Source of the DNA: a virus
Taxonomy: Duplodnaviria > Heunggongvirae > Uroviricota > Caudoviricetes
IMG/VR virus record: IMGVR_UViG_2698536536_000001
Location: 1 to 18,079 of that record
DNA: 18,079 nt
Strand: one strand, 5' to 3'
Part shown: piece by piece, positions 583 to 16,145 of the stretch
Position numbering within the stretch: position 1 is the first letter of the stretch
How the letters are laid out: each line of letters opens with the position of its first letter
Program-made: the position numbers and the translations under genes
Notes under the pieces: generated by a model
The model's input: only the letters and a program-made list of their open reading frames with translations
Told to the model about the DNA's origin: nothing
The model's database searches: none

Positions 583-1596
583 TTACTCTACTGTGGACAC
601 TGTGTGGACACTCTCGGCCTCAGTACCACCTCTTAGCGGATTAAGAGAAATGGCGTCCTGAAGGTACTCTGGCGCAAAATGAGCGTAAACCATAGTTTGC
701 TCAATCCGCGTGTGACCTAGTATCCGTTGTAGCGTGATAATACTTCCTCCATTAATCATGAAATGAGTGGCAAAGCTGTGCCTTAGTGCATGTGTGGCTT
801 GCCCCATTGGCAAATCCGGTTTTATTGCTTTCATTGTTCTTCTGAAGCGAGGGTAATCAGCATCAGGGAATAAAAAACCTCGTTTGTTATCCGCGATCAT
901 TTTGGCAACAGCCTCTGAGATCGGGACGGTGCGTGGTTTGTTTGTTTTCGTTTTAACAAACGTGACGCGGTTATGGATGATATTTTCTGCTTTCAAACGA
1001 GCTGCTTCTCCCCAACGTGCTCCTGTACTCAGGCAAAGAATCGCAATCTTTTTGTTGTCGCCGTCAAGTGCTGCAAGCAGTAAGGCAATTTCTTCCTGTG
1101 TGAGATAGCCTGTTTCTGGTTTTTCCTCCTTAAGCCTCTTTGTCCCTCTGATAGGGTGCTCACCAAAGAATAACTCCGCTTCAATCAGGGCTGTAAACAT
1201 GCCGCTAATACATGTTAAATCACGATTGATACTCGAAGGTTTAATACCCTGACTTCTTCGGGTGGCGCAGTACTGGCTGATAAGGGATTTCGTGATTTGA
1301 AATGCGCATGGGTCATTCGTTATTTTTGTGAAGATTTCAATTTTTCCAAGATTAGATTTCCCATGCTCTTCGTGTTTACCCTTTAAATCCCACCAGATCT
1401 GTGTCAGTTCCGACAGACGTCGTTTGTCTGTTGGTTTTGATAGCCATTCTTTATTGTGGTGGTTGTACAACGTGTATTTTTCGAAAGCGACAGCTTCGCT
1501 TTTCTTATCAAACTTCCTACGGATGCGTTTTCCGTTACGTCCAGTAGGGCGGATGTCCACTTCATATCGACCATCATCGAGTTTTTTGATTGCCAT
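583..1596 (-). CDS. int: P2-type tyrosine integrase, 337 aa
   Basis: C-terminal catalytic region carries R (TGARWGE), HALRHSF (H-x-x-R), LGHT and YAHF, the tyrosine-recombinase residues. Length equals the 337 aa I recall for P2 Int. It is at the prophage end next to the att core. Good SD (ggaggg) upstream of the ATG. Confidence 0.9.
   Translation of the reverse strand: MAIKKLDDGRYEVDIRPTGRNGKRIRRKFDKKSEAVAFEKYTLYNHHNKEWLSKPTDKRRLSELTQIWWDLKGKHEEHGKSNLGKIEIFTKITNDPCAFQITKSLISQYCATRRSQGIKPSSINRDLTCISGMFTALIEAELFFGEHPIRGTKRLKEEKPETGYLTQEEIALLLAALDGDNKKIAILCLSTGARWGEAARLKAENIIHNRVTFVKTKTNKPRTVPISEAVAKMIADNKRGFLFPDADYPRFRRTMKAIKPDLPMGQATHALRHSFATHFMINGGSIITLQRILGHTRIEQTMVYAHFAPEYLQDAISLNPLRGGTEAESVHTVSTVE
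592..611. promoter_or_regulatory. Putative Int arm-type binding sites, two direct TGTGGACAC repeats 11 bp apart
   Basis: tgtggacac occurs at 592..600 and 603..611, overlapping the 3' end of int. Related TGTGG(A/T)C motifs occur beside the right att core (16483..16513). Assignment as Int arm sites is inference from position. Confidence 0.4.
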
Positions 1597-4172: not shown

Positions 4173-5753
4173 AGCCTCCGGGCGTTTTGTCCCTCCTTCA
4201 GCATTTGCTGCAGGCACCGGTAAGGCGTTTACCGGTGCTTATGCATGGAACGCGCCACGCGAGGCCGTCGGGCGCGAAAGACCCCTTACACGTGACGAGA
4301 TGCGTCAGGTGCAAGGTGTTTTATCCACGATTAACCGCCTGCCTTACTTTTTGCGCTCGCTGTTTACTTCACGCTATGACTACATCCGGCGCAATAAAAG
4401 CCCGGTATTGAGCGTTACGCCGCCGCAGAGGGTGATGTGGGGATGTTTATCACGCTGACCGCGCCGTCAAAGTATCACCCGACTCGTCAGGTCAGAAAAG
4501 GCGAAAGTAAAACCGTTCAGCTTAATCACGGCTGGAACGATGAGGCATTTAATCCAAAGGATGCGCAGCGTTATCTCTGTCGTATCTGGAGCCTGATGCG
4601 CACGGCATTCAAGGATAATGATTTACAGGCCTACGGTTTGCGTGTCGTTGAGCCACACCACGACGGAACGCCGCACTGGCATATGATGCTTTTTTGTAAT
4701 CCACGCCAGCGTAACCAGATTATTGAAATCATGCGTCGCTATGCGCTCAAAGAGGATGGCGACGAAAGAGGAGCCGCGCGAAACCGTTTTCAGGCAAAAC
4801 ACCTTAACCGGGGCGGTGCTGCGGGGTATATCGCGAAATACATCTCAAAAAACATCGATGGCTATGCACTGGATGGTCAGCTCGATAACGATACCGGCAG
4901 ACCGCTGAAAGACACTGCTGCGGCTGTTACCGCATGGGCGTCAACGTGGCGCATCCCACAATTTAAAACGGTTGGTCTGCCGACAATGGGGGCTTACCGT
5001 GAACTACGCAAATTGCCTCGCGGCGTCAGCATTGCTGATGAGTTTGACGAGCGCGTCGAGGCTGCACGCGCCGCCGCAGACAGTGGTGATTTTGCGTTGT
5101 ATATCAGCGCACAGGGTGGGGCAAATGTCCCGCGCGATTGTCAGACTGTCAGGGTCGCCCGTAGTCCGTCGGATGAAGTTAACGAGTACGAGGAAGAAGT
5201 CGAGAGAGTGGTCGGCATTTACGCGCCGCATCTCGGCGCGCGTCATATTCATATCACCAGAACGACGGACTGGCGCATTGTGCCGAAAGTTCCGGTCGTG
5301 GAGCCTTTGGCTTTAAAAAGCGGCATCGCCGCGCCTCGGAGTCCTGTCAATAACTGTGGAAAGCTCACCGGTGGTGATACTTCGTTACCGGCTCCCACAC
5401 CTTCTGAGCACGCCGCAGCAGTGCTTAATCTGGTAGATGACGGTGTTATCGAATGGAATGACCAGGAGGTCGTGAGGGCGCTCAGAGGTGCATTAAAACA
5501 CGGTCTGAGAAGACCAAACCGTCAGCAAAGAAACGGAAGCCCGTTAAAACCGCATGAAATAGCGCCATCGGCCAGACTGACCCGGTCGGAACGAATGCAA
5601 ATTACCCGTATCCGCGTTGACCTTGCTCAGAACGGTATCAGGCCGCAGCGATGGGAGCTTGAGGCGCTGGCGCGTGGTGCAATTGTGAACTATGGCGCAA
5701 AAGAATTTCATTACCATGTTCAGAAGGCGTGGGAAGCATTTTCGAGGTGGTAA
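4162..5753 (+). pseudogene. A: Rolling-circle replication initiator gene A, apparently frameshifted
   Basis: N-terminal frame MAVKASGRF… from 4162 ends at 4458. The C-terminal frame opens at 4398 and runs to 5753. The two frames are reconciled by a 1-nt change in the A4 run at 4396..4399. The C-terminal part carries an HUH motif (HHDGTPHWHMMLF) and a two-tyrosine motif (YIAKYISK). The combined length of about 530 aa is shorter than the roughly 760 aa I recall for P2 A. Confidence 0.7.
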
Positions 5754-5863
5754 TCTAAATATGAAAAATCTGCACACCGAAACACTCTTGTAGGTTGATA
5801 ATTTGCAAACTAGGTGGATTTACTCTTTGATGTGTAAGAAGTTATACTACAAAAAATTGATTT

Positions 5864-6784
5864 ATGGGCTTGGCGATGTATAACGATCCTTATAGTGACC
5901 CAAAAGCGTGGGAATCATATTTCAAAAATATTGTTTGGCTACATTATAAGCCTGCTAACTGTTGTGACTTGCCAGATGAGCATGGAGGCGACTTTGGGCT
6001 GGAGTGTTACACTCTGAGTGGTCATGTTTTTCAGTGTTACTTGCCTGAGCAGTCGAGTGATATTGATAAGCTTTATAAAGCGCAACAAAAAAAGATTTAT
6101 ACTGATATAAAAAAGTTTTCTCAGGATAACATTAAAGAATTAGAGGAGCTTTTTGGCACATTAAAAATTAGCCGCTGGATATTAGCTACACCATATAATA
6201 AATCGGCGAAATTAAGTCAATATTGCACAAAAAAATCATTAAAAGTAAGAGAGTTAGGGATTTCTTACGTTGCTGATGATTTTCAAATAGTAGTGCAAAC
6301 AGATCGAAATTATATAGAAGAAGCGTTCTTTCTTCGCAAAAATAACTATCAATTAAGCTTTAATATAAATGATGCGACGGCTGAGAATGCTGCTAACTTT
6401 ATTAGTGAAAATACATCTTTTTTAGATAAGCTAAATTTAAAATTACCTAAGATAAATGATGATGTATCTAGGCAGGGTTTATATAGAGAGTTTTTAATAC
6501 AAAAATATCTTGATTATCAAAACTTGCTGGATGCTTTGAAGAGAGACTGGGTTGATATCTATGAAATTATCTATAACTGTGTTCAACATAGAGAACGTAA
6601 TTTGGTAGGTCTCTTTCTTCTTACTTCATCAGATGCGAAACCATCAGATATAATGAAAGATGAAATCGCTTTGTTAAAGAAATGTATTGAAGAGGAAGTT
6701 AGTACGCTTAAACAGGCTGACTTGGATAAGATAACATGGGGAGTTATTTCTGATTGGCTTATAAGATGCCCTTTAGATTTTTAG
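5864..6784 (+). CDS. Cargo gene 1: unknown 306-aa protein, candidate effector of a defence operon
   Basis: Long ORF in a sharply AT-rich block directly after A, in the P2 tin/old hotspot position. N-terminal Cys/His-rich patch (NCCDLPDEHGGDFGLECYTLSGHVFQCY). No motif assignable by eye. Confidence 0.6.
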   Translation: MGLAMYNDPYSDPKAWESYFKNIVWLHYKPANCCDLPDEHGGDFGLECYTLSGHVFQCYLPEQSSDIDKLYKAQQKKIYTDIKKFSQDNIKELEELFGTLKISRWILATPYNKSAKLSQYCTKKSLKVRELGISYVADDFQIVVQTDRNYIEEAFFLRKNNYQLSFNINDATAENAANFISENTSFLDKLNLKLPKINDDVSRQGLYREFLIQKYLDYQNLLDALKRDWVDIYEIIYNCVQHRERNLVGLFLLTSSDAKPSDIMKDEIALLKKCIEEEVSTLKQADLDKITWGVISDWLIRCPLDF

Positions 6785-6785
6785 A

Positions 6786-7262
6786 ATGGAAAAGCAAATG
6801 CATATAACGATAGATGAAATAATAGGAAGGCCGTTTACGTTTAATAAACGACCTGAACATTTGCCATGTGATATGAGACCATTGTGGCGTTGCAGTTTGT
6901 TGCTGATAATATTCCTTGTCACAGGGAGAGCTGGTTGCTGTTCTTTAAAAAAACTTCATTTAATTAATTGGATGTTAAAGTCAGAGAATAATGAAGCAAT
7001 GTTTGAATTCTGGCTTTTAAACAAAGAAGGTTTAAAGCCTGAAGTAAGATTGGATCCAACTTTAGATAGAGCAATACAGCTATTATTAGCAGAGGATTTT
7101 ATTTTGAGAAATGAACGAGCGTTCAAAATAAATGAAAAGGGGCTTAAGGTCGCTGAGAAATTGCTTTCTCTTGATGTGTTCAAAGAAGAAAGGTTGGTGC
7201 TAAATAAACATAAGGCTGGACTGTCCGAAACTAACATTAATAAAATATTTCAGGTGGGTTAA
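6786..7262 (+). CDS. Cargo gene 2: unknown 158-aa protein
   Basis: Starts 2 bp after the gene 1 stop and ends 1 bp before gene 3. Same AT-rich composition. Contains one hydrophobic stretch (LWRCSLLLIIFLVTG). Confidence 0.55.
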   Translation: MEKQMHITIDEIIGRPFTFNKRPEHLPCDMRPLWRCSLLLIIFLVTGRAGCCSLKKLHLINWMLKSENNEAMFEFWLLNKEGLKPEVRLDPTLDRAIQLLLAEDFILRNERAFKINEKGLKVAEKLLSLDVFKEERLVLNKHKAGLSETNINKIFQVG

Positions 7263-7263
7263 T

Positions 7264-9285
7264 ATGTCGTTGGAAATTATTTCATTGGAGTTAGTAGCAA
7301 ATACTTCGGATGGGCGTTATGGTGTTAGTATACCTTTTTCAAATGGCTTGTTTTTATTAAGAGTTGAGAATTCTCATGGTAAATCAACTTGCATGAATGG
7401 GATTGCATATGCACTTGGGATGGAAAAGGCATTAGGTGTCGGTTCTGGAAAAATCCCATTCCCTCCATCTTTGACTAGAGCACTAACGACAAAAGATAAT
7501 GTTGAAGTTAGTGTAATATCATCTTATGTTTTGCTAAAAATAAAGAATCATAAGGGAATAGAAGCATCTTTGAAAAGGAATATTATCGGTCACGATAATA
7601 ATAATGTTATTTATATAGATGAGAAGAATAATGTAAAAAGTAAGAGTGGTACTTATTTTTTACATAGAGAGGGCGATACTGAAAGGGAACGTGGTTTCTA
7701 TAAGTGGTTAGCTGATTTTATAGGTTGGAGTTTGCCAAATGTTCCAAACCATAATGGGAAGGACACTATTCTTTATCCATCCGTACTTTTCCCTGCATGG
7801 TATGTTGAGCAAAAAAAAGGATGGTCGTCAATTATGGCGACTGTACCAACACAATTTGGAATTAAAGAGCCAAAGAAAAGAGCTCTAGAATTTTTAATGT
7901 CTCTTGATGTTAATGATAATATTTTATTGCGTAGTTCGTTAAGAAATGAACTTGATATTATTTATCATGATTGGAAGTTAATTAAACACAATGCAGAAGT
8001 TATTGCTTCTAAATTGTCGTCAGTTGTCACAGGGATTCCTGAACAACCAGTGGCAAAATTTGATCATTATAAGATAGATTTGATTATTAAAAATGGTAGT
8101 GTCGTTAGATCTATTGTTGATGTTCGTAATGAACTGGAAAAAGAGTTGCAAGAAATTAAGTTTGACACTCTTGGTGAGCAAGAAGAACAAACTTTACAAT
8201 TATCAGTGGTTAAGTTATTAGGTCAAAAAAATGATGAAATTAACTCTCTGGAATTAAAGATTAAAGAGATTTGTGAGCATAGAAGTTATATTCAATATCA
8301 AATTCAGGCGACCAAAAACAGATTGTATAATCTGTTGGAAGATAAAAGGAAGTATGAAGATTTAAAGAAAATATCATCTTCGGATGCGTATAAGTCAACA
8401 GATTTAATGTCAAATATTTGTCCGACTTGTGGTGCAAGTTATAATGATAATTTGCTAAGTTTTTCATCGCAAGAAAATCTGATGACATATGAAGATAGTT
8501 TGAACTTTATTAAAGAGCAAGTAAAAGCATTTGAGTTTGTTCTGTCGGATAGTGAAAAGCAATTAAAGCTTAAAGATGTTGAGAGGAGTGATTTAGAGGG
8601 GGAAATAGCCAAGATTAGAGTTGATATTAATGCATTAAGGGAGTCAAAATATCCCTCAATGGTTGTTCAGGAGGAGTTTCTGAGACGTAAAATAAACATT
8701 GAGAATAAAATTAATGCCATTAACGATGGCATTAAAAGTATATTGGACATTAGACTGGAGTTGGATTCATTACACCGTAGATATAAAAAGCTTATCGCGA
8801 AAAGAAAAGGGTTGCCAGATAATTTCTTGTCGCGTAATGATGCCGATAAGTTAAAATTTCTTAATAAAGAAGTCGTTGCACGATTAGAAAAATATAATTT
8901 TACAAGTTTTGATTCTAAACTTGTGTCAATATCAGAAGATAATTACTTACCTACTAGGGAAGGATATGATATAGGTTTTGACACATCAGCTAGTGATGGA
9001 ATAAGAATCATTTGGGGTTATTTAATAAGTTTATTTGTTGTTGGTTCTAAATTTCAAACAAATCACCCTGGATTGATTGTGTTTGATGAGCCTCGTCAAC
9101 AAGAAGCAAATAAAGTAAGTTTTGCCGAGTTACTTAAAGATGCTGCAGAAACAACAAAAGGACAAGGGCAGATCATTTTTGCTACATCAGAAGATGAAAA
9201 TGTCTTAAAAGAGGCATTAGAAGGGTATGACTATACAATGATATCCTTTGATAAGAACAATGGGAAATTGTTGAGGAAATTATAA
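7264..9285 (+). CDS. Cargo gene 3: SMC/Rad50-like ABC ATPase with coiled-coil arms, 673 aa
   Basis: N-terminal Walker A-like P-loop VENSHGKST (about 7366..7389). Long K/E/L-rich heptad-like middle region. CPTC motif at 8419..8430 near the middle of the coiled coil. C-terminal Walker B/D-loop GLIVFDEP (about 9071..9094). Confidence 0.75.
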   Translation: MSLEIISLELVANTSDGRYGVSIPFSNGLFLLRVENSHGKSTCMNGIAYALGMEKALGVGSGKIPFPPSLTRALTTKDNVEVSVISSYVLLKIKNHKGIEASLKRNIIGHDNNNVIYIDEKNNVKSKSGTYFLHREGDTERERGFYKWLADFIGWSLPNVPNHNGKDTILYPSVLFPAWYVEQKKGWSSIMATVPTQFGIKEPKKRALEFLMSLDVNDNILLRSSLRNELDIIYHDWKLIKHNAEVIASKLSSVVTGIPEQPVAKFDHYKIDLIIKNGSVVRSIVDVRNELEKELQEIKFDTLGEQEEQTLQLSVVKLLGQKNDEINSLELKIKEICEHRSYIQYQIQATKNRLYNLLEDKRKYEDLKKISSSDAYKSTDLMSNICPTCGASYNDNLLSFSSQENLMTYEDSLNFIKEQVKAFEFVLSDSEKQLKLKDVERSDLEGEIAKIRVDINALRESKYPSMVVQEEFLRRKINIENKINAINDGIKSILDIRLELDSLHRRYKKLIAKRKGLPDNFLSRNDADKLKFLNKEVVARLEKYNFTSFDSKLVSISEDNYLPTREGYDIGFDTSASDGIRIIWGYLISLFVVGSKFQTNHPGLIVFDEPRQQEANKVSFAELLKDAAETTKGQGQIIFATSEDENVLKEALEGYDYTMISFDKNNGKLLRKL

Positions 9286-9594: not shown

Positions 9595-10629
9595 TCAGCC
9601 GTTGTCAGTGTCCAGTGAGTAGTTTTTAAAGCGGATGACCTCCTGACCGAGCCAGCCGTTTATCTCGCGGATCCTGTCCTGTAGCGGGATAAGCTCATTG
9701 CGGACAAAGACCTTTGCCACTTTCTCAATATCACCCAGCGACCCGACGTTCTCCGGCTTGCCGCCCATCAACTGAAAGGGGATGCGGTGCGCGTCCAGCA
9801 GGTCAGCGGCGCTGGCTTTTTTGATATTAAAAAAATCGTCCTTCGTTGCCACTTCACTGAGCGGGATAATTTTGATGCCGTCGGCTTTCCCCTGTGGGGC
9901 ATAGAGAAACAGATTTTTAAAGTTGTTGCGGCCTTTCGACTTCACCATGTTTTCGCGGAGCATTTCGATATCGTTGCGATCCTGCACGGCATCAGTGACG
10001 TACATGATGTATCCGGCATGAGCGCCGTTTTCGTAATACTTGCGGCGGAACAGTGTGGCTGATTCATTCAGCCAGGCAGAATTAAGGGCGCTGAGATATT
10101 CCGGCAGGCCGTACAGCTCCTGATTGATATCCGGCTCCAGCAGGTGAAACACGGAGCCGGGCGTGAAGGCTGTCGGCTCGTTGAAGGACGGCACCCACCA
10201 GTAAACATCCTCCTCCACGCCACGGCGGGTATATTTTGCCGGTGAGGTTTCCAGTCTAATGACCTTACCGGTGGTGCTGTAACGCTTTTCCAGAAACGCA
10301 TTACCGAACACCAGAAAATCCAGCACAAAGCGGCTGAAATCCTGTTGCGAAAGCCACGGATGCGGGATAAATGTCGAGGCCAGAATATTGCGTTTAACGT
10401 AAATCGGTGAGCTGTGATGCACGGCAGCACGCAGGCTTTTCGCCAGACCGGTAAAGCTGACCGGCGGCTCATACCATCTGCCGTTACTGATGCACTCGAC
10501 GTAATCCAGAATGTCACGGCGGTCGAGTACCGGCACCGGCTCACCAAAGGTGAAAGCCTCCATTTTCGGGGCGCTGGCGGTCATTTTTTTTGCCTCAGGT
10601 TGCGGTGTTTTCCCTTTTTTCTTGCTCAT
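9595..10629 (-). CDS. Q: Portal (capsid) protein Q, 344 aa
   Basis: 344 aa, the length I recall for P2 Q. N-terminus MSKKKGKTPQP… Adjacent to cos and in P2 orientation. Confidence 0.85.
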   Translation of the reverse strand: MSKKKGKTPQPEAKKMTASAPKMEAFTFGEPVPVLDRRDILDYVECISNGRWYEPPVSFTGLAKSLRAAVHHSSPIYVKRNILASTFIPHPWLSQQDFSRFVLDFLVFGNAFLEKRYSTTGKVIRLETSPAKYTRRGVEEDVYWWVPSFNEPTAFTPGSVFHLLEPDINQELYGLPEYLSALNSAWLNESATLFRRKYYENGAHAGYIMYVTDAVQDRNDIEMLRENMVKSKGRNNFKNLFLYAPQGKADGIKIIPLSEVATKDDFFNIKKASAADLLDAHRIPFQLMGGKPENVGSLGDIEKVAKVFVRNELIPLQDRIREINGWLGQEVIRFKNYSLDTDNG

Positions 10630-10940
10630 CAGTAAAACTCCAGAATGGTGGATGTCAGCGGAGTGCTGATACCGGCGGTGAGTGGCTCATTTAACAGGGC
10701 GTGCATGGTTGCCCAGGCGAGGTCGGCGTGGCTGGCTTCCTCGCTGCGGCTGGCCTCATAGGTGGCGCTGCGTCCGCTGCTGGTCATGGTCTTGCGGATA
10801 GCCATAAACGAGCTGGTGATGTCGGTGGCGCTGACGTCATATTCCAGACAGCCACGGCGGATAACGTCTTTTGCCTTGGCCGACATCGTGCTCAACAGTA
10901 CGCAGGCGTCTTTCTGTACCGAATACCGCGTCGTGACCGG
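10629..10940 (-). pseudogene. P: 3' remnant of terminase large-subunit gene P, truncated by deletion
   Basis: Open frame whose stop overlaps the Q start (ATGA), as for P-Q in P2, but only about 100 codons remain before it collides with gene I on the opposite strand. Upstream boundary is approximate. Homology to P not verified. Confidence 0.4.
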
Positions 10941-10948
10941 AGGCTCGG

Positions 10949-11479
10949 ATGAGTGATTCGCGACTGCTGCCGACCGGCTCATCACCGCTTGAGGTCGCCG
11001 CCGCAAAAGCCTGTGCGGAAATTGAAAAAACGCCGGTCAGTATTCGTGAGCTGTGGAACCCGGACACCTGTCCGGCAAATCTGCTGCCGTGGCTGGCGTG
11101 GGCGTTTTCGGTCGACAGGTGGGATGAAAAGTGGCCGGAAGCGACAAAACGCGCCGTTATCCGCGATGCGTATTTCATCCACTGTCATAAGGGCACTATC
11201 GGTGCAATCCGGCGTGTGGTGGAGCCGCTCGGCTATCTCATCAACGTGACGGAGTGGTGGGAAAACAGTGACCCGCCAGGCACCTTCCGGCTTGATATTG
11301 GTGTTCTGGAAAGTGGCATCACAGAGGCAATGTATCAGGAAATGGAACGGCTGATTGCTGATGCCAAACCTGCAAGCCGTCACCTTATTGGCCTGAACAT
11401 TACCCGGGACATTCCCGGCTACCTGTTCGCCGGTGGTGTGGCTTACGACGGCGATGTAATTACGGTTTACCCCGGATAA
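10949..11479 (+). CDS. I: Baseplate assembly protein I, 176 aa
   Basis: 176 aa with sequence matching recalled P2 gpI (MSDSRLLPTGSSPLEVAAAKA…). SD ggagg upstream. Immediately followed by H. Confidence 0.8.
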   Translation: MSDSRLLPTGSSPLEVAAAKACAEIEKTPVSIRELWNPDTCPANLLPWLAWAFSVDRWDEKWPEATKRAVIRDAYFIHCHKGTIGAIRRVVEPLGYLINVTEWWENSDPPGTFRLDIGVLESGITEAMYQEMERLIADAKPASRHLIGLNITRDIPGYLFAGGVAYDGDVITVYPG

Positions 11480-15308: not shown

Positions 15309-16145
15309 ATGAGTGACTATCATCACGGCGTGCAGGTGCTGGAGATTAACGACGGCACCCGCGTCATTTCCACCGTATCCACTGCCATTGTCGGCATGGT
15401 CTGCACGGCCAGCGATGCGGATGCGGAAACCTTTCCCCTCAATAAACCTGTGCTGATTACCAATGTGCAGAGCGCAATTGCAAAGGCCGGTAAAAAAGGC
15501 ACGCTGGCGGCGTCGCTGCAGGCCATCGCCGACCAGTCAAAACCGGTCACCGTTGTTGTGCGCGTGGAAGACGGCACCGGCGACGACGAGGAAACGAAAC
15601 TTGCGCAGACCGTTTCCAATATCATCGGCACCACCGACGAAAACGGTCAGTACACCGGCGTAACGGCAAAGTGGTTACACACCAAAGACCCGAAGCCGCA
15701 AAAGCAGAAGGTAAAACTGAAACGCAAAAAGAAAGAAAAACACCTGCGCGCACTGGAGCACCCGAAAGCGAAACCGGTCACGCAGAAGAAAGCGCCAAAA
15801 GTACCGGAAGCGCGCGAAGGTGAATACATGGCCGGTGAAGCTGACAACGTTTTTGCCCTGACTACGGTATATGCCACGAAAGCACAGGCCATGCGCGCCG
15901 CTCAGGCGAAGTGGGATAAACTGCAACGGGGCGTTGCGGAGTTCTCCATCAGCCTTGCCACTGGTCGTGCTGATATTTACACGGAAACACCGGTCAGAGT
16001 GTCAGGCTTTAAGCGCGTCATAGACGAGCAGGACTGGACCATCACTAAGGTGACACATTTTCTGAATAATAGCGGCTTCACGACGTCCTTGGAGCTTGAG
16101 GTCAGGCTTTCTGATGTGGAGTACGAAACAGAAGATGATGAGTAA
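15309..16145 (+). pseudogene. In-frame fusion remnant: tail sheath FI N-terminus joined to tail protein D C-terminus (yegZ-like)
   Basis: First ~118 residues ([14 protein letters not shown]…TDENGQYTG) match the recalled P2 FI sheath N-terminus. The C-terminal ~100 residues lie immediately upstream of ogr, where gene D ends in P2. The two are joined by a Lys-rich linker. FII, E, T, U and most of FI and D are missing. Confidence 0.65.

What the first reader, a model, noticed from the sequence alone, without database searches (positions are those of the whole stretch)
7264..9285. SMC/Rad50-like ATPase with a central CPxC hook-like motif
The 673-aa protein has a P-loop (VENSHGKST) about 35 residues from the N-terminus. 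A long Lys/Glu/Leu-rich region of roughly 300 residues follows, consistent with antiparallel coiled-coil arms. A Walker B/D-loop (GLIVFDEP) lies about 70 residues from the C-terminus. Near the middle of the coiled-coil region is ICPTCG (8419..8430), which resembles the Rad50 zinc-hook CPxC used for dimerisation. A Rad50-type hook in a compact defence-associated SMC-like protein would be mechanistically informative.
Basis: seen in the sequence. Interest (0 to 1): 0.7.

Follow-up and report, generated by a model that had tools for sequence, protein, structure and literature searches.

The report
Lamassu LmuB with zinc hook
The gene encodes LmuB, the Rad50-like sensor ATPase of a Lamassu anti-phage system carried by a P2-type prophage of E. 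coli; its central CPTC really is a zinc-hook motif at the tip of the coiled coil, but this is an already published feature of the family.

Summary
ORF 7264-9285 encodes a 673-aa protein with a P-loop (K40), a 328-residue helical arm, a Walker B (D608-E609) and CPTC at 8419-8430.

The interpretation also holds. The two cysteines and the proline are invariant in all 261 homologues examined, each of which has exactly one CxxC. An AlphaFold2 model puts the motif in the only non-helical stretch between the outgoing and returning arm helices. A profile of the hook region finds the P. furiosus Rad50 zinc-hook crystal structure as its best PDB hit, aligned cysteine on cysteine.

The protein is not a new kind of thing. 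It is LmuB (PADLOC E=1e-98), the last gene of an lmuA-lmuC-lmuB Lamassu operon. The operon sits in the known defence hotspot between gene A and the portal gene of a degraded P2-like prophage. The LmuB "CPxCG" zinc hook was described by 2023, seen at the coiled-coil tip in 2025 cryo-EM structures, and shown by mutation to be needed for defence.

Three things are specific to this clade: 12-15% identity to solved LmuBs, a canonical Walker B glutamate where the characterised systems have glutamine, and an LmuA with a restriction-endonuclease fold but a Q-x-Y motif where the fold's (D/E)-x-K is inferred to lie. Interest is low.

The parts
5864..6784 (+). lmuA, the effector. It has an N-terminal restriction-endonuclease-fold domain and a helical C-terminal domain of the ABC-three-component type. 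RefSeq and most homologues start at the second in-frame ATG (window 5876, 302 aa).
6786..7262 (+). lmuC, the small middle component. RefSeq starts it at window 6798 (154 aa).
   Evidence: PADLOC LmuC PDLC03871, E=2.5e-23, covering 17-156 of 158 residues. A 154-aa homologue lies between lmuA and lmuB in distant loci.
7264..9285 (+). lmuB, the Rad50/SMC-like ABC ATPase with a coiled-coil arm and a zinc hook. This is the finding.
   Evidence: PADLOC LmuB PDLC03863, E=1.1e-98, full length. Foldseek top hits are the solved LmuB chains 9hqx_B, 9uxh_F, 9hqu_A and 9ux7_A (E 1e-15 to 1e-12), followed by Rad50. AlphaFold2 pLDDT 84.
7363..7389 (+). Walker A / P-loop, VENSHGKST (residues 34-42).
   Evidence: N36, G39, K40 and S41 are invariant. 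Weak profile matches to Rad50 and SMC heads fall over this region.
8338..8520 (+). Hook module (residues 359-419). It comprises the conserved flank DKRKYEDLKK, a variable linker, the invariant CPTCG, a low-confidence loop, and the conserved flank LM..ESL.FIKEQ.
   Evidence: The alignment block is gapless across the family. The non-helical stretch 373-408 lies between helices 308-372 and 409-460. The hook profile's best PDB hit is the Rad50 zinc hook 1l8d.
8419..8430 (+). CPTC (C386-P387-T388-C389), providing two zinc ligands per protomer.
8986..9000 (+). ABC signature-like motif S575-A576-S577-D578-G579.
   Evidence: A576, S577 and D578 are invariant. Its role in head engagement is inferred from ABC ATPases in general and from the S536R head-engagement mutant of Salmonella LmuB.
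9067..9090 (+). Walker B, GLIVFDEP, with the canonical catalytic glutamate E609.
   Evidence: D608, E609 and P610 are invariant. D-E is present in at least 141 of 148 further representatives.
5819..5848 (+). Promoter-like site upstream of lmuA (9 of 12 consensus positions). This is a weak consensus match only.
   Evidence: The number of such sites in the region is not clearly above the shuffled expectation.

Best explanation
ORF 7264-9285 encodes LmuB, the sensor ATPase of a three-gene Lamassu (lmuA-lmuC-lmuB) abortive-infection system. The operon is AT-rich cargo in the gene A / portal defence hotspot of a P2-like prophage of E. coli.

**Shown here**
- LmuB has a split ABC head, residues 1-215 and 544-673.
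- An antiparallel helical arm of about 115-125 helical residues per strand projects from the head.
- The invariant CPTC sits at the turn-around of that arm.

**Inferred**
- Each protomer supplies only two cysteines. There is no other Cys or His in the apex stretch, so four ligands need two protomers. The two hooks would share one Zn2+ as in Rad50, giving an LmuB dimer joined at the tip.
- By analogy with the solved Salmonella, Vibrio and Bacillus complexes, the conserved hook-proximal flanks dock LmuC and the LmuA C-terminal domain. This holds one LmuA as an inactive monomer.
- A DNA end bound at an LmuB head, together with ATP-driven head engagement, then opens the folded arms and releases LmuA.
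- Released LmuA oligomerises through its C-terminal domain, and its restriction-endonuclease-fold domain cuts DNA indiscriminately. The infected cell is stopped before phage are released.

**Specific to this clade**
- The Walker B glutamate is intact, so ATP turnover is probably faster than in the characterised E-to-Q LmuBs.
For: - **Family assignment.** PADLOC gives LmuB 1e-98, LmuC 2.5e-23 and LmuA 1e-29 for three adjacent co-directional genes separated by 1 bp. The best structural matches are solved LmuB chains, then Rad50. For LmuA they are solved LmuA, then FokI and other PD-(D/E)xK nucleases.
- **Hook.** CPxC is invariant in 260 of 261 homologues, with exactly one CxxC each. It lies in the stretch between helices 308-372 and 409-460. 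The top PDB hit of the hook profile is the Rad50 zinc hook 1l8d, with the cysteines aligned.
- **Conserved operon.** The same triad is found in Pantoea and Pseudomonas outside any P2 phage.
- **Context.** The operon is 33% GC against 48-52% in the flanks. It lies between replication gene A and portal gene Q in an intact P2-like prophage of strain PSUO2. That hotspot is already known.
- **Mechanistic steps, from the literature.** The hook is at the distal tip and is required for defence. LmuA is sequestered by LmuB2-LmuC, the complex binds DNA ends, and LmuA forms a tetramer.
Against: - No zinc, dimer or complex was observed here. The model is a monomer, and the apex has low confidence (pLDDT 47-60).
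- Even the published cryo-EM maps did not resolve the Zn atom.
- Sequence identity to solved LmuBs is only 12-15%, and sequence searches of the PDB do not reach them. Transferring the mechanism is therefore an inference from fold and operon.
- In the LmuA fold model, strand 54-58 is read as the third strand of the endonuclease fold, where (D/E)-x-K normally lies. It carries an invariant Q-x-Y instead. Nuclease activity is therefore not assured.
- No experiment on this particular system was found.
Confidence: 0.88

Rival explanations
1. The CPxC at the apex is not a zinc site. It might form an inter- or intra-chain disulfide or be purely structural, with the LmuB dimer held by coiled-coil and LmuC/LmuA contacts. 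This would resemble the Vibrio LmuB, which has lost its hook.
For: Some functional short LmuBs, such as V. cholerae DdmC, have no CxxC at all and still form LmuB2 complexes. Zn was not resolved in any Lamassu map. The AlphaFold2 confidence at the apex is low.
Against: C-P-x-C is invariant over 261 sequences down to 28% identity, while the surrounding linker varies freely. That argues for a precise chemical role. The motif and its flanks align to the Rad50 zinc hook. The bacterial cytoplasm is reducing, so stable disulfides are unlikely there (established knowledge). A functional hook was required for defence in Salmonella LmuB.
Confidence: 0.06
2. The protein is a housekeeping Rad50/SbcC-type repair ATPase, or a phage recombination protein, rather than a defence sensor.
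For: Weak profile matches to Rad50 heads and to the Rad50 hook. Rad50 structures appear among the fold matches. Lamassu is thought to derive from SbcCD.
Against: - There is no Mre11/SbcD-type nuclease gene next to it. Its partners are LmuA and LmuC.
- The arms are far shorter than in SbcC or Rad50.
- The best fold matches are LmuB chains, not Rad50.
- It is present in only 32 of 5,426 complete E. coli genomes.
- It is AT-rich cargo in a known phage defence hotspot.
Confidence: 0.02
3. The operon is a Lamassu relative, but its LmuA is not a nuclease. The restriction-endonuclease fold has lost the catalytic lysine (Q-x-Y), so it acts as a DNA-binding module or through different chemistry.
For: G-D-x-G-x-E ... 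F-Q-x-Y is invariant, and no lysine occupies the canonical third-strand position as inferred from the fold model. No nuclease family matches in Pfam, NCBIfam or the PDB by sequence.
Against: The fold matches active nucleases: FokI, CdiA-CT DNase, N.BspD6I and Can2. Invariant K77, D81 and K84 on the following helix could supply a relocated lysine, as happens in some PD-(D/E)xK enzymes (established knowledge; not tested here). This rival concerns the effector only and does not change the reading of LmuB and its hook.
Confidence: 0.15

Closest known systems
Salmonella enterica Lamassu LmuACB (PDB 9hqu, 9hqx, 9hr5; bioRxiv 10.1101/2025.03.14.643221)
   Same: Same three-gene order, A-C-B. LmuB has the same layout of ABC head, folded coiled coil and a single zinc hook at the distal tip, and it is the best fold match. 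LmuA has a nuclease fold plus an oligomerisation C-terminal domain. The hook, ATP binding and the nuclease are all required for defence in that system.
   Different: - Only 12-13% identity in the structural alignment, and undetectable by sequence.
- The hook sits at residue 386 here, whereas the published folding points imply about residue 355 in the Salmonella protein.
- Salmonella LmuB has the deviant Walker B (E to Q), while this one has an invariant D-E.
- Salmonella LmuA has a catalytic lysine (K68), while this LmuA has Q-x-Y.
Vibrio cholerae DdmABC (Lamassu Vc-Cap4; PMC12663957; PDB 9nxx, 9uxh)
   Same: A short Lamassu with LmuA, LmuC and LmuB. It has the Walker A lysine at K40, and LmuA is sequestered at the coiled-coil apex. 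It matches this LmuB and LmuA by fold.
   Different: DdmC has lost the zinc hook and has a deviant Walker B. Its effector is a recognisable Cap4 nuclease with K57.
Rad50 / SbcC zinc hook (P. furiosus Rad50 hook, PDB 1l8d)
   Same: A CPxCG motif at the turn-around of an antiparallel coiled coil that emanates from an ABC head. It is the best PDB sequence hit of the hook profile, with the cysteines aligned.
   Different: The arms are several-fold shorter. The partners are LmuC and LmuA docked near the hook, rather than Mre11/SbcD on the heads. The connection after the motif is longer (373-408) and contains a poorly predicted loop. Similarity is marginal (E=0.0035).
Bacillus type I Lamassu LmuAB (PDB 9ux7; bioRxiv 10.1101/2025.06.23.660979)
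   Same: LmuB has a single CxxC (285-CQYC-288), juxtaposed between the two protomers at the distal end. The LmuA C-terminal domain binds there. It is a fold match.
   Different: It has no LmuC, its motif is CQYC rather than CPxC, and its arm is shorter.

Membership tests
Lamassu LmuB (SMC/Rad50-like sensor of Lamassu / ABC-3C systems) | Sequence match to LmuB family models | tested here: met
   PADLOC PDLC03863, E=1.1e-98, covering residues 1-669. Nine further LmuB models also match.
Lamassu LmuB (SMC/Rad50-like sensor of Lamassu / ABC-3C systems) | Split ABC ATPase head with Walker A lysine and Walker B aspartate, separated by a coiled-coil insert | tested here: met
   K40 and D608-E609 are invariant. 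Helices 216-372 and 409-543 lie between the two head halves. Fold matches are to LmuB, Rad50 and SMC heads.
Lamassu LmuB (SMC/Rad50-like sensor of Lamassu / ABC-3C systems) | Encoded in an operon with an LmuA effector, usually with LmuC as well | tested here: met
   lmuA and lmuC lie immediately upstream on the same strand. The same triad is found in distant genomes.
Lamassu LmuB (SMC/Rad50-like sensor of Lamassu / ABC-3C systems) | Confers phage or plasmid defence by abortive infection | not testable with these tools
   No experiment on this system was found. Support is indirect: the operon sits in a defence hotspot.
Rad50-type zinc hook | CxxC motif conserved across homologues | tested here: met
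   C386 and C389 are invariant. All 261 homologues have one CxxC, and 260 are CPxC.
Rad50-type zinc hook | Motif located at the apex of an antiparallel coiled coil, distal from the ATPase head | tested here: met
   The DSSP assignment on the AlphaFold2 model places CPTC in the stretch 373-408 between helices 308-372 and 409-460. The arms have 114 and 124 helical residues.
Rad50-type zinc hook | Two protomers share one tetrahedrally coordinated Zn2+ | not testable with these tools
   Supported only by inference. Each chain has a single CxxC and no other Cys or His in residues 373-408. Dimer prediction and metal analysis were not possible.
Rad50-type zinc hook | Detectable sequence similarity to solved Rad50 hooks | tested here: inconclusive
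   1l8d is the best hit in the PDB and its cysteines are aligned, but only at E=0.0035. 6zff scores E=0.028.
Rad50/SbcC DNA-repair complex | Adjacent Mre11/SbcD phosphoesterase partner | tested here: not met
   The neighbours are LmuA and LmuC. No metallophosphatase appears in the window.
Lamassu LmuA with PD-(D/E)xK / Cap4-type nuclease effector | Restriction-endonuclease fold in the N-terminal domain | tested here: met
Lamassu LmuA with PD-(D/E)xK / Cap4-type nuclease effector | Canonical D...(D/E/Q)-x-K catalytic motif | tested here: not met
   The invariant motif is D43 ... E47 ... Q57-C58-Y59. No lysine occupies the position on strand 54-58 where the canonical motif is expected from the fold. 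No residue-level structural alignment was available to confirm the equivalence.

The most novel reading that the evidence does not exclude
This clade has at least several hundred 50%-identity clusters and is invariant for a CPxC hook, a canonical Walker B glutamate and a Q-x-Y LmuA. It could be a mechanistically distinct Lamassu subtype.

In that reading, LmuB is a true turnover ATPase, closer to Rad50/SbcC than the E-to-Q LmuBs studied so far, so activation could be reset rather than one-way. The effector would use a rearranged active site with a relocated lysine or tyrosine-based chemistry.

The clade would also be the natural system for the E-to-Q experiment. The Salmonella study says that experiment is impossible in its own system, yet it is needed to separate head engagement from ATP hydrolysis.
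Probability: 0.2. Interest if true: 0.45.

Novelty: already known. Interest (0 to 1): 0.2.

Why it matters
That LmuB carries a Rad50-type zinc hook at the tip of its arm, and that the hook is needed for defence, is already published with structures and mutants.

The practical value is in annotation. In most of the 32 complete E. coli genomes that carry the operon, all three genes are labelled "hypothetical protein", and they can be relabelled as a Lamassu system.

There is also a modest mechanistic opening. This subfamily keeps the catalytic Walker B glutamate that the studied LmuBs lack. A simple E609Q mutant could therefore test whether ATP hydrolysis, rather than only ATP binding and head engagement, is needed to activate Lamassu. 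Its LmuA also offers an uncharacterised variant of the nuclease active site.

Tried and rejected
- **Single-sequence and full-length profile searches of the PDB** did not reach any solved LmuB. They returned only keratin-type coiled-coil noise, weak Rad50/SMC P-loop hits and the Rad50 hook. The link to solved LmuBs came only from the fold search.
- **Pfam and NCBIfam** gave nothing usable for LmuB, LmuC or LmuA. LmuB scored AAA_23 below the curated cut-off, and LmuA gave only noise, including when all 49 aligned homologues were scanned.
- **Sequence and profile searches of the PDB with LmuA** found no nuclease. I therefore could not get a residue-level alignment of Q57-x-Y59 to the catalytic (D/E/Q)-x-K of Cap4 or FokI.
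- **A home-made 3.5-residue hydrophobic periodicity scan** was not discriminating. Only 2 of the arm windows exceeded the shuffled 95th percentile, so I do not use it. The coiled-coil claim rests on AlphaFold2 helices, composition and fold matches.
- **Model coordinates** are not exposed to scripts, so I could not measure the distance of CPTC from the head or the arm packing.
- **A possible shared zinc site between LmuB and LmuC cysteines** was considered and rejected. The LmuC cysteines are not conserved in a distant homologue.
- **Literature look-ups** for the RefSeq accessions and for supplementary tables that would give the published clade label found nothing. Krishnan et al. 2020 is not held.
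- **The phage collection** has no near-identical copy of the operon.
Full report
**1. The observation**

The ORF 7264..9285 (+) exists, starts with ATG and encodes 673 residues. The sequence features are as follows.
- VENSHGKST is residues 34-42, with K40.
- GLIVFDEP holds D608-E609, 65 residues from the C-terminus.
- Nucleotides 8416-8433 translate to ICPTCG, so the quoted 8419..8430 is exactly C386-P387-T388-C389.
- The region 216-543 is richer in Glu, Lys and Leu (34-36%) than the head (about 24%) and poorer in Gly and Pro.

With only four cysteines in the protein, a CxxC arises by chance in 1.8% of random placements. Within the 36-residue apex stretch the figure is 0.09%.

**2. What it is**

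PADLOC models identify three adjacent, co-directional genes:

| Window coordinates | Gene | PADLOC E-value |
|---|---|---|
| 5864-6784 | LmuA | 1.1e-29 |
| 6786-7262 | LmuC | 2.5e-23 |
| 7264-9285 | LmuB | 1.1e-98, full length |

The genes are separated by a single base. This is a Lamassu lmuA-lmuC-lmuB operon.

The surroundings are a P2-like prophage. They include an integrase (583-1596, minus strand), the C-terminal part of replication protein A (4437-5753), the portal (9595-10629, minus strand), tail protein I, and tail fibre H and its assembly protein. The host genes yegR and yegQ lie at the two ends.

The operon is ≥99% identical (100% in the best matches) in 32 of 5,426 complete E. coli genomes, where it is mostly annotated as three hypothetical proteins. 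In strain PSUO2 it lies in an intact P2-like prophage between the replication endonuclease and the portal. That position is the previously described P2 defence hotspot, and Lamassu-family systems have been reported in prophage hotspots. The operon is 33% GC against 48-52% in the flanking phage genes, as expected of exchangeable cargo.

**3. The hook**

*Conservation.*
- All 113 homologues from the first search, down to 29% identity, contain exactly one CxxC. It is always CP[T/A/V/I]C at the equivalent position.
- In a 59-sequence alignment, C386, P387 and C389 are invariant. So are K40, D608-E609 and A576-S577-D578.
- A profile search of 1.84 billion cluster representatives found 1,935 relatives at E≤1e-3 and 814 at E≤1e-30.
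- Of the 148 new representatives listed, all have exactly one mid-protein CxxC, 147 of them CPxC. At least 141 keep the Walker B D-E.
- The hook block aligns without gaps. It has a variable linker between two strongly conserved flanks, DKRKYEDLKK and LM..ESL.FIKEQ.

*Position.*
- An AlphaFold2 model (mean pLDDT 84) gives helices 216-250, 284-297 and 308-372. A non-helical stretch 373-408 containing CPTC follows, and then helices 409-460, 464-515 and 524-543 return to the C-terminal head half.
- The two arms have 114 and 124 helical residues, and the motif lies at the turn-around rather than in a globular domain.
- Confidence at the apex is low (47-60), as expected for a monomer model of a site that needs a partner and a metal.

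*Similarity to Rad50.* A profile of residues 335-440 alone finds the P. furiosus Rad50 zinc-hook crystal structure 1l8d as the best hit among 177,635 PDB sequences. The score is E=0.0035, and CPTCG aligns on CPVCG. The second Rad50 hook entry, 6zff, scores E=0.028. This is marginal but specific.

*Stoichiometry argument (inference).* Each chain offers two thiols, and there is no other Cys or His in 373-408. A four-ligand site therefore needs two chains, which is the Rad50 hook arrangement.

**4. Relation to solved structures**

Sequence searches of the PDB do not reach any LmuB. The fold search does:
- The top matches are Salmonella LmuB (9hqx_B, 9hqu_A), type II Lamassu LmuB (9uxh_F) and type I LmuB (9ux7_A). 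They score E 1e-15 to 1e-12 at 12-15% identity.
- Next is 9a6c_A, an integrative YYDD-YYDB model.
- Rad50, SMC, MukB and JetC follow.

**5. What the literature already says**

[quoted passage not shown] It cites Krishnan et al. 2020.
- The Salmonella cryo-EM study describes LmuB as an ABC head, a coiled coil and a zinc-hook dimerisation domain. The two hooks are juxtaposed, and LmuA and LmuC bind near them.
- The Bacillus structure likewise shows 285-CQYC-288 juxtaposed at the distal end without resolved zinc.
- The PNAS study maps zero, one or two CxxC copies over the LmuB tree and derives Lamassu from SbcCD.

**6. Mechanism**

*Shown here:* family membership, operon architecture, the split ABC head, the helical arm, and an invariant CPxC at the apex.

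*Inferred from the solved homologues:*
1. Two LmuB chains are joined at the tip by a shared Zn.
2. The conserved hook-proximal flanks dock LmuC and the LmuA C-terminal domain, sequestering one LmuA monomer.
3. A DNA end binds at a head.
4. ATP-driven head engagement opens the folded arms and frees LmuA.
5. Free LmuA oligomerises and its nuclease-fold domain degrades DNA, aborting the infection.

**7. What is particular to this clade**

- *Walker B.* The Salmonella study characterises LmuB proteins as carrying a deviant Walker B in which the catalytic Glu is replaced by Gln. Its authors note that the usual E-to-Q test of hydrolysis is therefore unavailable. Here D608-E609 is invariant. The PNAS survey already lists E among the short-Lamassu variants, so this is a known state. 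It does make this subfamily a convenient test bed.
- *LmuA active site.* The invariant residues are G42, D43, G45, E47, Q57, C58, Y59, K77, D81 and K84, and they are kept at 30% identity in Pantoea. Strand 54-58 is predicted as the third strand of the fold. It carries Q-x-Y where the (D/E)-x-K would be expected. I could not obtain a residue-level structural alignment to confirm this equivalence.
- *Context independence.* The same triad occurs next to an integrase in Pantoea dispersa and in the chromosome of Pseudomonas cavernae. The module is therefore not tied to P2.

**8. Verdict**

The thing itself is an ordinary, already catalogued member of a known defence family. Its hook is a published, structurally visualised and mutationally tested feature. 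Interest is low. The residual interest lies in the Walker B glutamate and the unusual LmuA motif.

Noticed in passing
window 4404; 10878-10949; 15309-16145: The P2-like prophage in this window is defective compared with the intact copy in E. coli PSUO2. About 680 bp are missing inside replication gene A. The sequence jumps from the 3' end of the terminase gene straight to tail gene I, so the capsid, lysis and baseplate genes are lost. One ORF fuses a sheath N-terminus to a gpD C-terminus. The Lamassu operon is nevertheless intact and 100% identical, so the defence cargo has been kept in a decaying prophage.
   Followed up: partly
window 5864-6784 (LmuA residues 42-84): LmuA has a restriction-endonuclease fold. 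Its invariant motif is G-D43-x-G-x-E47 ... F-Q57-C-Y59, followed by K77, D81 and K84 on the next helix. There is no lysine at the position where the canonical (D/E)-x-K is expected from the fold. The motif is kept in a 30%-identical homologue from Pantoea. No Pfam, NCBIfam or PDB sequence match exists.
   Followed up: partly
window 9082-9090 (LmuB D608-E609-P610): The Walker B keeps the catalytic glutamate throughout this LmuB subfamily, whereas the structurally characterised Salmonella and Vibrio LmuBs have glutamine. This predicts a faster ATPase and makes an E609Q experiment informative.
   Followed up: partly
window 8338-8370 and 8479-8520 (LmuB 359-369, 406-419): The two helical flanks of the hook, DKRKYEDLKK and LM..ESL.FIKEQ, are among the most conserved parts of the arm, while the linker next to the CPxC varies freely. 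They probably form the docking surface for LmuC and the LmuA C-terminal domain, by analogy with solved complexes. This was not tested.
   Followed up: no
LmuB homologues P0234-P0381: In the wider subfamily, the residue after the motif is most often histidine (CPxCH in 73 of 148 representatives) rather than the glycine of Rad50 and of this protein. A histidine there might act as an extra metal ligand or change hook geometry.
   Followed up: no
window 5864-9285 versus flanks: The operon is 33% GC, against 48% for the early phage genes and 52% for the portal-to-fibre region. This is consistent with recent horizontal acquisition of the cargo. It occurs in only 32 of 5,426 complete E. coli genomes and in no record of the phage collection.
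   Followed up: yes
window 5864/5876 and 6786/6798: The longest ORFs for lmuA and lmuC start four codons upstream of the starts used in RefSeq and by most homologues (302 and 154 aa). The true starts are probably the second ATGs.
   Followed up: partly
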